DNA of 64,000 nt from NCBI GenBank assembly GCA_951406725.2, contig OX597814.1:122760001-122824000 (forward strand), in the 5' to 3' direction. Numbering within the stretch: the first letter of the stretch is position 1; each line of letters begins with the position of its first letter. This stretch comes from Octopus vulgaris. Taxonomy: Eukaryota. Positions 41,633-42,051 of this stretch are shown here, one piece after another. The translations under genes were made by a program, and so were the position numbers. The notes below the pieces were generated by a model that was given only the letters and a program-made list of their open reading frames with translations, was not told the DNA's origin and did no database searches.

Positions 41633-42051
41633 ACTGCAGCGTGGAAGGTCTTTATAAGCCATTTAAAAACACACAAAAACCGTTAGATTCATTTCAACAT
41701 TTAAATTGAATTTGTCAAAATATTTTATTTCTTTATTGCTCACAAATGGCCAAACATAGAGGAGTCAAACAAGGACAGACAAAGGGATTAAGTCGATTAC
41801 ATCGACCTCAGTGTGTAACTAGTACTTAATTTATCGACCCATAAATGTTGAAAGGCAAAGTCAACCTTGGCAGAATTTGAAATCATTTGTCAAAATATTT
41901 TCGTCCTTTTGAAACCGCGACCTGCTCACTGACAAAATTCCGTGCAGCCAAAGCGACGAAAATATTTTGACACATTAAATTTAAATGTTGAAGTGAATTT
42001 AACGGTTTTTGCATGTTTTTCTAATGGTTTATAAACACCTTCAACGCTGCA
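41633..42051. mobile_element. Inverted-repeat PLE-type fragment; left arm interrupted by an F1 SINE (41727-41882, minus) with 17-bp TSD
   Basis: 41634-41726 is the reverse complement of 41959-42050; atttgtcaaaatatttt duplicated at 41710 and 41885. Confidence 0.8.
41886..41936 (-). ncRNA. Minimal hammerhead motif, G3:C8 swapped core
   Basis: Reverse complement tttgtca-GTGAGCA-g-gtc(gcggtttcaaaag)gac-GAAA-atat-TT-tgacaaa; the other arm has gcgac-GAAA, extending stem II to gtcgc/gcgac. Confidence 0.65.

What the first reader, a model, noticed from the sequence alone, without database searches (positions are those of the whole stretch)
41886..41975. G3:C8 hammerhead with self-complementary AAAAUAUUUU stem III
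Seen: 7-bp stem I (tttgtca/tgacaaa), core GUGAGCA, UUU at the predicted cut site, and a stem III that is a palindrome too short to fold alone. The inverted partner arm supports a 5-bp stem II. Inference: probably active only as a dimer, as described for other minimal PLE hammerheads; the swapped core plus UUU triplet is an unusual combination.
Basis: partly seen in the sequence, partly recalled or inferred. Interest (0 to 1): 0.7.

Follow-up and report, generated by a model that had tools for sequence, protein, structure and literature searches.

The report
Swapped-core hammerhead in Penelope retrotransposons
This is one damaged copy of a hammerhead-ribozyme motif carried by thousands of copies of a Penelope-like retrotransposon, whose catalytic C3:G8 pair is naturally swapped to G3:C8; intact copies likely self-cleave slowly as dimers, while this copy likely cannot.

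Summary
The motif is real: a minimal type I hammerhead on the minus strand (41936-41886) with a G3:C8 core and a palindromic stem III. It belongs to a Penelope-like element (PLE) family with 6,805 exact core matches. I traced the family to autonomous RT + GIY-YIG elements. The motif follows the ORF stop in 12 of 12 young loci, and G12 lies 66 nt before the next ORF's ATG. G3:C8 and UUU are fixed in the youngest copies, so they are not decay. A sister PLE has C3:G8 and three further compensatory pairs at the equivalent site, but also A9C. A third family splits into A3:U8 (31 of 54) and G3:C8 (18 of 54); a fourth uses U3:A8. The window copy is a dead fragment: stem II is cut to 3 bp, a SINE-like repeat is inserted, and an inverted partner would sequester it. 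Cleavage is untested, and copies derive from uncleaved RNA. Minimal dimer hammerheads in PLEs are known, and an engineered G3:C8 mutant is partly active. I found no natural G3:C8 or A3:U8 family in print, but Lunse 2017 could not be read. Verdict: new variant of a known kind.

The parts
41886..41936 (-). Minimal type I hammerhead motif: stem I 7 bp, core G3-U4-G5-A6-G7-C8-A9 plus extra G, damaged stem II (3 bp), GAAA, palindromic stem III AAUAUU, predicted cut after U17 (between 41893 and 41892)
   Evidence: Sequence; folds; alignment with young and sister copies
41885..41948 (-). 5' part of the PLE pseudo-LTR copy, starting near the family's sharp 5' end
   Evidence: 84% identity to tandem element L311
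41727..41884 (.). 158-bp insertion of an abundant SINE-like repeat; a 17-bp target duplication (41710-41726 and 41885-41901) copies stem III and the 3' strand of stem I
   Evidence: 17 other matches in the window; direct repeat D1. The SINE label is recalled, not tested
41628..41726 (-). 3' part of the same copy, running into the first codons of the PLE ORF and ending at the family's shorter 3' end
   Evidence: 89% identity to L311; end classes
41951..42114 (+). Inverted, 5'-truncated partner copy: starts at the 3' arm of stem II, lacks the core, carries the tail to about codon 31 of the ORF
   Evidence: 83% identity to L311; inverted repeats I1-I3

Best explanation
The motif is a decayed copy of the minimal hammerhead in the pseudo-LTR of a high-copy Penelope-like retrotransposon whose family has a fixed G3:C8 core, and intact copies likely self-cleave weakly, only when two motifs pair through the palindromic stem III and probably with help from the element's protein. 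Shown: linkage to an RT + GIY-YIG ORF, tandem pLTR-ORF-pLTR elements, position 66 nt before the ATG, fixation in the youngest copies, compensatory changes across families. Inferred: transcription starts about 23 nt before G3 on a capped RNA; the RT primes at AT-rich DNA, starts inside the ORF at two sites and runs to the RNA 5' end, giving the roughly 150-210 bp solo and head-to-head copies such as this one; the two motifs of a tandem transcript form the dimer. The window copy would be inactive.
For: Young copies 99-100% identical to each other carry an intact G3:C8 motif beside open frames of 628-1025 aa. The motif follows the ORF stop on the same strand in 12 of 12 loci, at about 1 kb in 11 and 1.7 kb in 1. 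L311 and L320 show the short element's 3' end continuing into the ORF; GIY-YIG passes the Pfam cut-off. The sister PLE (37% identity over the first 246 aa) has C3:G8 plus compensated pairs in stems I, II and III. In a third PLE family 49 of 54 copies have a Watson-Crick 3:8 pair, 31 A:U and 18 G:C (counted by eye; 28 of 30 stored loci by script). Shared variants hit 0 of 25 core and stem II/III columns against 10 of 69 other non-coding columns, one-sided P=0.038; the one shared stem I change keeps a U-G pair. In a young copy read from its 5' end, stems I and II form with P>=0.93. A G absent from long copies precedes AGATG in 90 of the first 100 purine-start matches. Frangieh 2024 (PMC11167929, results read): C3G/G8C partly restores cleavage in a PLE hammerhead, cleavage needs protein, RT starts inside the ORF.
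Against: No cleavage or RNA end was observed. The within-family test is weak: P=0.055 when ORF-start columns are included, P=0.21 for the core alone, and young copies are over-represented. The sister family (3,325 matches) has C at position 9 in 96 of the first 100 and a non-palindromic stem III, so a successful PLE tolerates an impaired core. The in-register 6-bp dimer helix is worth only -0.2 kcal/mol, an off-register 10-bp duplex -3.8, and G3 is predicted to pair with U17 (P=0.67). None of 28 tail-selected copies starts at the cut site, so insertion does not use cleaved RNA. Each 3:8 swap between families may be one event, so there are few independent events.
Confidence: 0.62

Rival explanations
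1. The motif is a hammerhead-derived fold kept in the family for a non-catalytic role, such as protein binding, RNA dimerisation or control of translation between cap and ATG; it no longer cleaves at a useful rate.
For: A9C and loss of the palindrome in a successful sister family; very weak stem III and a predicted G3-U17 pair; copies come from uncleaved RNA. Frangieh 2024 found catalytic mutants do not affect insertion in vitro and no RNA-seq ends at the site. Cervera 2014 leaves non-cleavage roles open.
Against: The 3:8 pair is a catalytic-core contact and stays Watson-Crick through three swaps in this genome; the invariant core letters and a non-G at 17 are kept in all four families, apart from position 9 in the sister.
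Confidence: 0.28
2. The motif is a neutral relic: the lineage lost the ribozyme, and the G3:C8 form simply hitch-hiked with successful master elements.
For: Within-family constraint is only borderline; few independent events.
Against: Four compensatory double changes between sister families, and loop II changes at 4 of 8 columns while the stems do not.
Confidence: 0.07
3. It is a chance look-alike inside a palindromic, MITE-like repeat unrelated to PLEs.
For: The 90-nt window stretch folds best as one long hairpin (z -5.35 and -7.12); no Rfam hammerhead hit.
Against: The hairpin comes from the head-to-head partner, whose inner end varies between copies. The element is collinear with PLE ORFs.
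Confidence: 0.03

Closest known systems
Minimal hammerheads (min-HHR) of metazoan Penelope-like elements (Cervera & de la Pena 2014, PMC4209133; results, discussion and supplementary Fig. S3 rows read)
   Same: Type I topology, extra nucleotide between 9 and 10.1, G10.1-C11.1, palindromic 15.2-16.2 region, location in the pLTR, mostly dispersed truncated copies, opposite-strand pairs close together, frequent U17.
   Different: Core 3:8 is G:C. None of the 56 rows has a GUGA core, but their descriptors were built for C3-G8 and U3-A8. The extra nucleotide is G (consensus H; G occurs in the Nasonia row). Stem III is all A-U.
PAc (Poseidon, Anolis) hammerhead and internal RT initiation (Frangieh et al. 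2024, PMC11167929; main text results read)
   Same: Hammerhead near the ORF start; two 3' end classes inside the ORF giving a tail; AT-rich targets; uncleaved RNA as template.
   Different: PAc has natural C3:G8, and G3:C8 there is an engineered rescue mutant. In PAc the ORF starts within stem II; here the ATG lies 66 nt after G12.
U3:A8 natural core variants (Perreault et al. 2011, PMC3088659, passages; Schistosoma Cercyon PLEs, Cervera 2014)
   Same: Natural compensatory change at 3:8; a young PLE family in this genome also has U3:A8.
   Different: Here G3:C8 and A3:U8 also occur, so all four Watson-Crick pairs are present in one genome.
Dimer-cleaving PLE hammerhead variants (Lunse, Weinberg & Breaker 2017)
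   Same: Short palindromic stem III, dimer cleavage (seen only as cited in PMC6765202 and PMC7761336).
   Different: The paper was not held, so whether it lists G3:C8 or A3:U8 is unknown.

Membership tests
PLE minimal type I hammerhead | Core (N3)UGAN(N8)A ... GAAA ... UH with Watson-Crick 3:8 | tested here: met
   G3:C8 in 148 of 151 and 144 of 152 letters at those columns
PLE minimal type I hammerhead | Stems I and II with G10.1-C11.1 and an extra nucleotide after A9 | tested here: met
   Met in intact family copies; stem II is reduced to 3 bp in the window copy
PLE minimal type I hammerhead | Palindromic stem III region | tested here: met
   AAUAUU; the predicted duplex is very weak
PLE minimal type I hammerhead | Location in the pLTR of an RT + GIY-YIG element | tested here: met
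   12 of 12 young loci; tandem L311
PLE minimal type I hammerhead | Self-cleavage as a dimer | not testable with these tools
   No assay; only contigs were available for RNA
Rfam hammerhead models | Match to a curated covariance model | tested here: not met
   No hammerhead family among 100 matches at E<=5 in 38000-46000
Penelope-like element, C-terminal EN+ | Single ORF with PLE-type RT and C-terminal GIY-YIG | tested here: met
   GIY-YIG 23.1 bits, cut-off 22.6. RT motifs DKS, YVDD read in the L309 translation and 28-29% identity to another PLE RT; Pfam RVT_1 did not hit the 530-aa piece tested
Penelope-like element, C-terminal EN+ | pLTRs, 5' truncation, inverted partner copy, tail, AT-rich or (TA)n targets | tested here: met
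   features as listed in Craig 2021 (PMC8557442 passages)
Nematis or Neptune clade | CX2-5CxxC linker and phylogenetic placement of the RT | tested here: inconclusive
   Linker present, with short spacing like the Nematis rows of Craig 2021 Fig. S2; no tree against named references was built
Non-LTR retrozyme | Non-coding tandem units each with a hammerhead | tested here: not met
   Copies are dispersed or head-to-head and belong to a coding element; the one close same-strand pair checked was a local duplication

The most novel reading that the evidence does not exclude
These are the first natural hammerhead families with G3:C8 and A3:U8 cores: PLE ribozymes in one genome use all four Watson-Crick pairs at 3:8 and are active, attenuated, dimer- and protein-gated switches between the cap and the start codon that sort transcripts into cut RNA and intact templates. 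Descriptor searches fixed on CUGANGA would have missed many thousands of them.
Probability: 0.3. Interest if true: 0.55.

Novelty: new variant of a known kind. Interest (0 to 1): 0.33.

Why it matters
The role of PLE hammerheads is open. This genome offers natural test material: related elements with G3:C8, C3:G8 (with A9C), A3:U8 and U3:A8 cores, young copies with long open frames, and tandem arrangements. If G3:C8 and A3:U8 cleave, hammerhead search patterns should be widened. If they do not, the conserved 3:8 pairing points to a structural role. The copy in the window is itself an ordinary dead fragment.

Tried and rejected
Rfam scan: no hammerhead hit. First idea that the family is a stand-alone SINE or retrozyme: rejected once long copies led to an ORF. 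The young 781-aa PLE with U3:A8 is not the partner: its pLTR aligns no better than shuffles, and 0 of 30 GIY-YIG loci had the motif; one held an unrelated 116-bp piece. Shared downstream flanks in six loci were insertions into other repeats. Splice-acceptor reading of the sharp 5' end (a CTAAC...CAG motif lies just upstream): no shared exon 1 in 22 copies and no fitting joint in four runs (repeats were skipped there, so this proves little); kept as a minor alternative. Run search: no RNA holder listed; contigs of four runs from four organism labels carry the family but cannot show strand, ends or expression. The generic G3:C8 + ACCGGU pattern gave 67 matches against 53 controls, so only the sequence family inside it counts. 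Earlier scan findings: none. Literature searches for natural G3:C8 or A3:U8 returned only engineered uses; Lunse 2017 and Arkhipova 2017 were not held.

Full report
Observation. The described parts are on the minus strand: stem I UUUGUCA (41936-41930) with UGACAAA (41892-41886), core GUGAGCA (41929-41923), an extra G, GAAA (41902-41899), the palindromic AAUAUU and U17. The predicted cut lies between 41893 and 41892. Stem II has 3 bp in this copy (-0.2 kcal/mol; -6.3 and -7.2 in two intact copies). A descriptor I wrote after seeing the motif hits the window twice and none of 100 shuffles; the second hit is another PLE hammerhead. Rfam has no hammerhead match in 38000-46000.

Anatomy in the window. 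The motif belongs to a minus-strand copy (41948-41628) split by a 158-bp repeat with a 17-bp duplication. An inverted partner (41951-42114) lacks the core and carries the family's longer 3' end. Read through the partner, stems I and II have pairing probability 0.0; without it, about 0.6 and 0.28. This copy is very likely inactive.

The family. The 18-mer spanning stem I, core and stem II has 6,805 exact matches in the 2.8-Gb genome, control 0. Most copies are short, often head-to-head and next to (TA)n. Of 83 copies, 25 end at +120 to +129 and 48 at +180 to +189 from G3. [quoted passage not shown] Young copies have open frames of 628-1025 aa and a motif 99-100% identical to each other, with G3:C8, 5-bp stem II and UUU intact. 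The motif follows the ORF stop in 12 of 12 such loci. In L311 and L320 the short element's end runs on into the ORF; both copies carry stops or a frameshift further in. The ATG is 66 nt after G12, so both 3' end classes lie inside the ORF, as reported for the Anolis element (PMC11167929). The host is probably an octopus: this is inferred from a homolog labelled Octopus vulgaris (52% identity) and from recalled repeat content.

Is the fold selected? Within the family, 185 of 258 copies were used after dropping those chosen by the core pattern or by similarity to the window. Shared non-CpG variants occur at 0 of 25 core and stem II/III columns against 10 of 69 other non-coding columns (P=0.038). 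With ORF-start columns the value is 0.055, and for the core alone 0.21. Four of 8 loop II columns vary, and the one shared stem I change keeps a U-G pair. Across families the signal is clearer. A sister PLE with a 1,312-aa frame (58% identity in the RT piece; 37% over the first 246 aa) has a motif before its ATG with C3:G8 and compensated pairs in stems I, II and III; one stem I pair is broken. Against activity, it has C9 in 96 of the first 100 of 3,325 matches and a non-palindromic stem III. A third family, with a copy at 47305-47330 of this window, has A3:U8 in 31, G3:C8 in 18 and a mismatch in 5 of 54 copies (counted by eye; 16, 12 and 2 of 30 by script). Nine of the 30 loci have a PLE ORF upstream of the G3:C8 motif. 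A fourth, young family has U3:A8. Each swap may be a single event.

Mechanism. Shown: position, linkage and covariation as above. Inferred: short copies start sharply at AGATG, 23 nt before G3. The base before it is C or T in long copies, but G in 10 of 22 copies and in 90 of the first 100 purine-start matches. From general knowledge, this fits an RT copying the cap of an RNA that starts there; a splice acceptor at the same place is not excluded. None of 28 tail-selected copies starts at the cut site, so templates were uncleaved. In a tandem element two motifs lie about 4.3 kb apart on one strand and could form the dimer. The in-register stem III is worth only -0.2 kcal/mol, an off-register duplex -3.8, and G3 may pair with U17, so slow, assisted cleavage is the most likely behaviour (0.62). 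A non-catalytic role is the main rival (0.28).

Comparison with what is known. Cervera 2014 (PMC4209133; parts 1-2 of the text and parts 1-2 of supplement 2 read; supplement 1 could not be searched) describes this architecture, low dimer activity and U3-A8. Perreault 2011 (passages) reports natural U3/A8. G3:C8 appears as an engineered, partly active mutant in Frangieh 2024, in a review passage (PMC8495972) and in PMC3884650 (passage). Craig 2021 (passages and supplement rows) lists only Naiad families for Octopus in the two of four places I saw. The 2026 retrozyme preprint was read in part 1 only; bioRxiv supplements were closed. Searches found no natural G3:C8 or A3:U8 family. Lunse 2017 and Arkhipova 2017, the likeliest places for one, were not held.

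Verdict. A real PLE minimal hammerhead with a family-wide G3:C8 core; the window copy is a dead fragment. New variant of a known kind, interest 0.33.

Noticed in passing
window 47305-47330 (-) and 47633-47881 (-): A second, 5'-truncated PLE: GIY-YIG fragment followed by a minimal hammerhead with an A3:U8 core, 10-bp stem I and ACCGGU stem III. Its family splits into A3:U8 and G3:C8 forms.
   Followed up: yes
L324 about 6220-6275; 3,325 genome matches: Sister PLE (1,312-aa frame, tandem arrays) whose hammerhead has C9 instead of A9 and a non-palindromic stem III; 3 of the first 100 matches have A9.
   Followed up: partly
L121 930-6172: Young PLE with many near-identical 781-aa frames, a separate upstream frame of about 350 aa, a 456-bp pLTR and a U3:A8 hammerhead with very short A-U stem I.
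   Followed up: partly
L161 about 5561 and L163: Further PLE-linked candidates: an A3:U8 motif with a 3-bp stem II, and a U3:A8 motif, both with ACCGGU stem III.
   Followed up: no
window 46851 (-): A C3:G8 hammerhead-like match with a longer palindromic stem III but only 3-bp stems I and II; may be chance.
   Followed up: no
window 31168-31906, 32966-33317, 53303-53858: Tandem arrays of a 184-192 bp unit of the repeat inserted at 41727-41884.
   Followed up: no
window 42579-44166, 44335-44798, 51617-52165: Long inverted repeats of 211-404 bp, 96-97% complementary; could be other head-to-head PLE ends or MITE-like elements.
   Followed up: no
L052 about 1580-2130 (-): A fragment that looks like a Tc1/mariner transposase directly upstream of a family copy (label recalled from motifs).
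   Followed up: no
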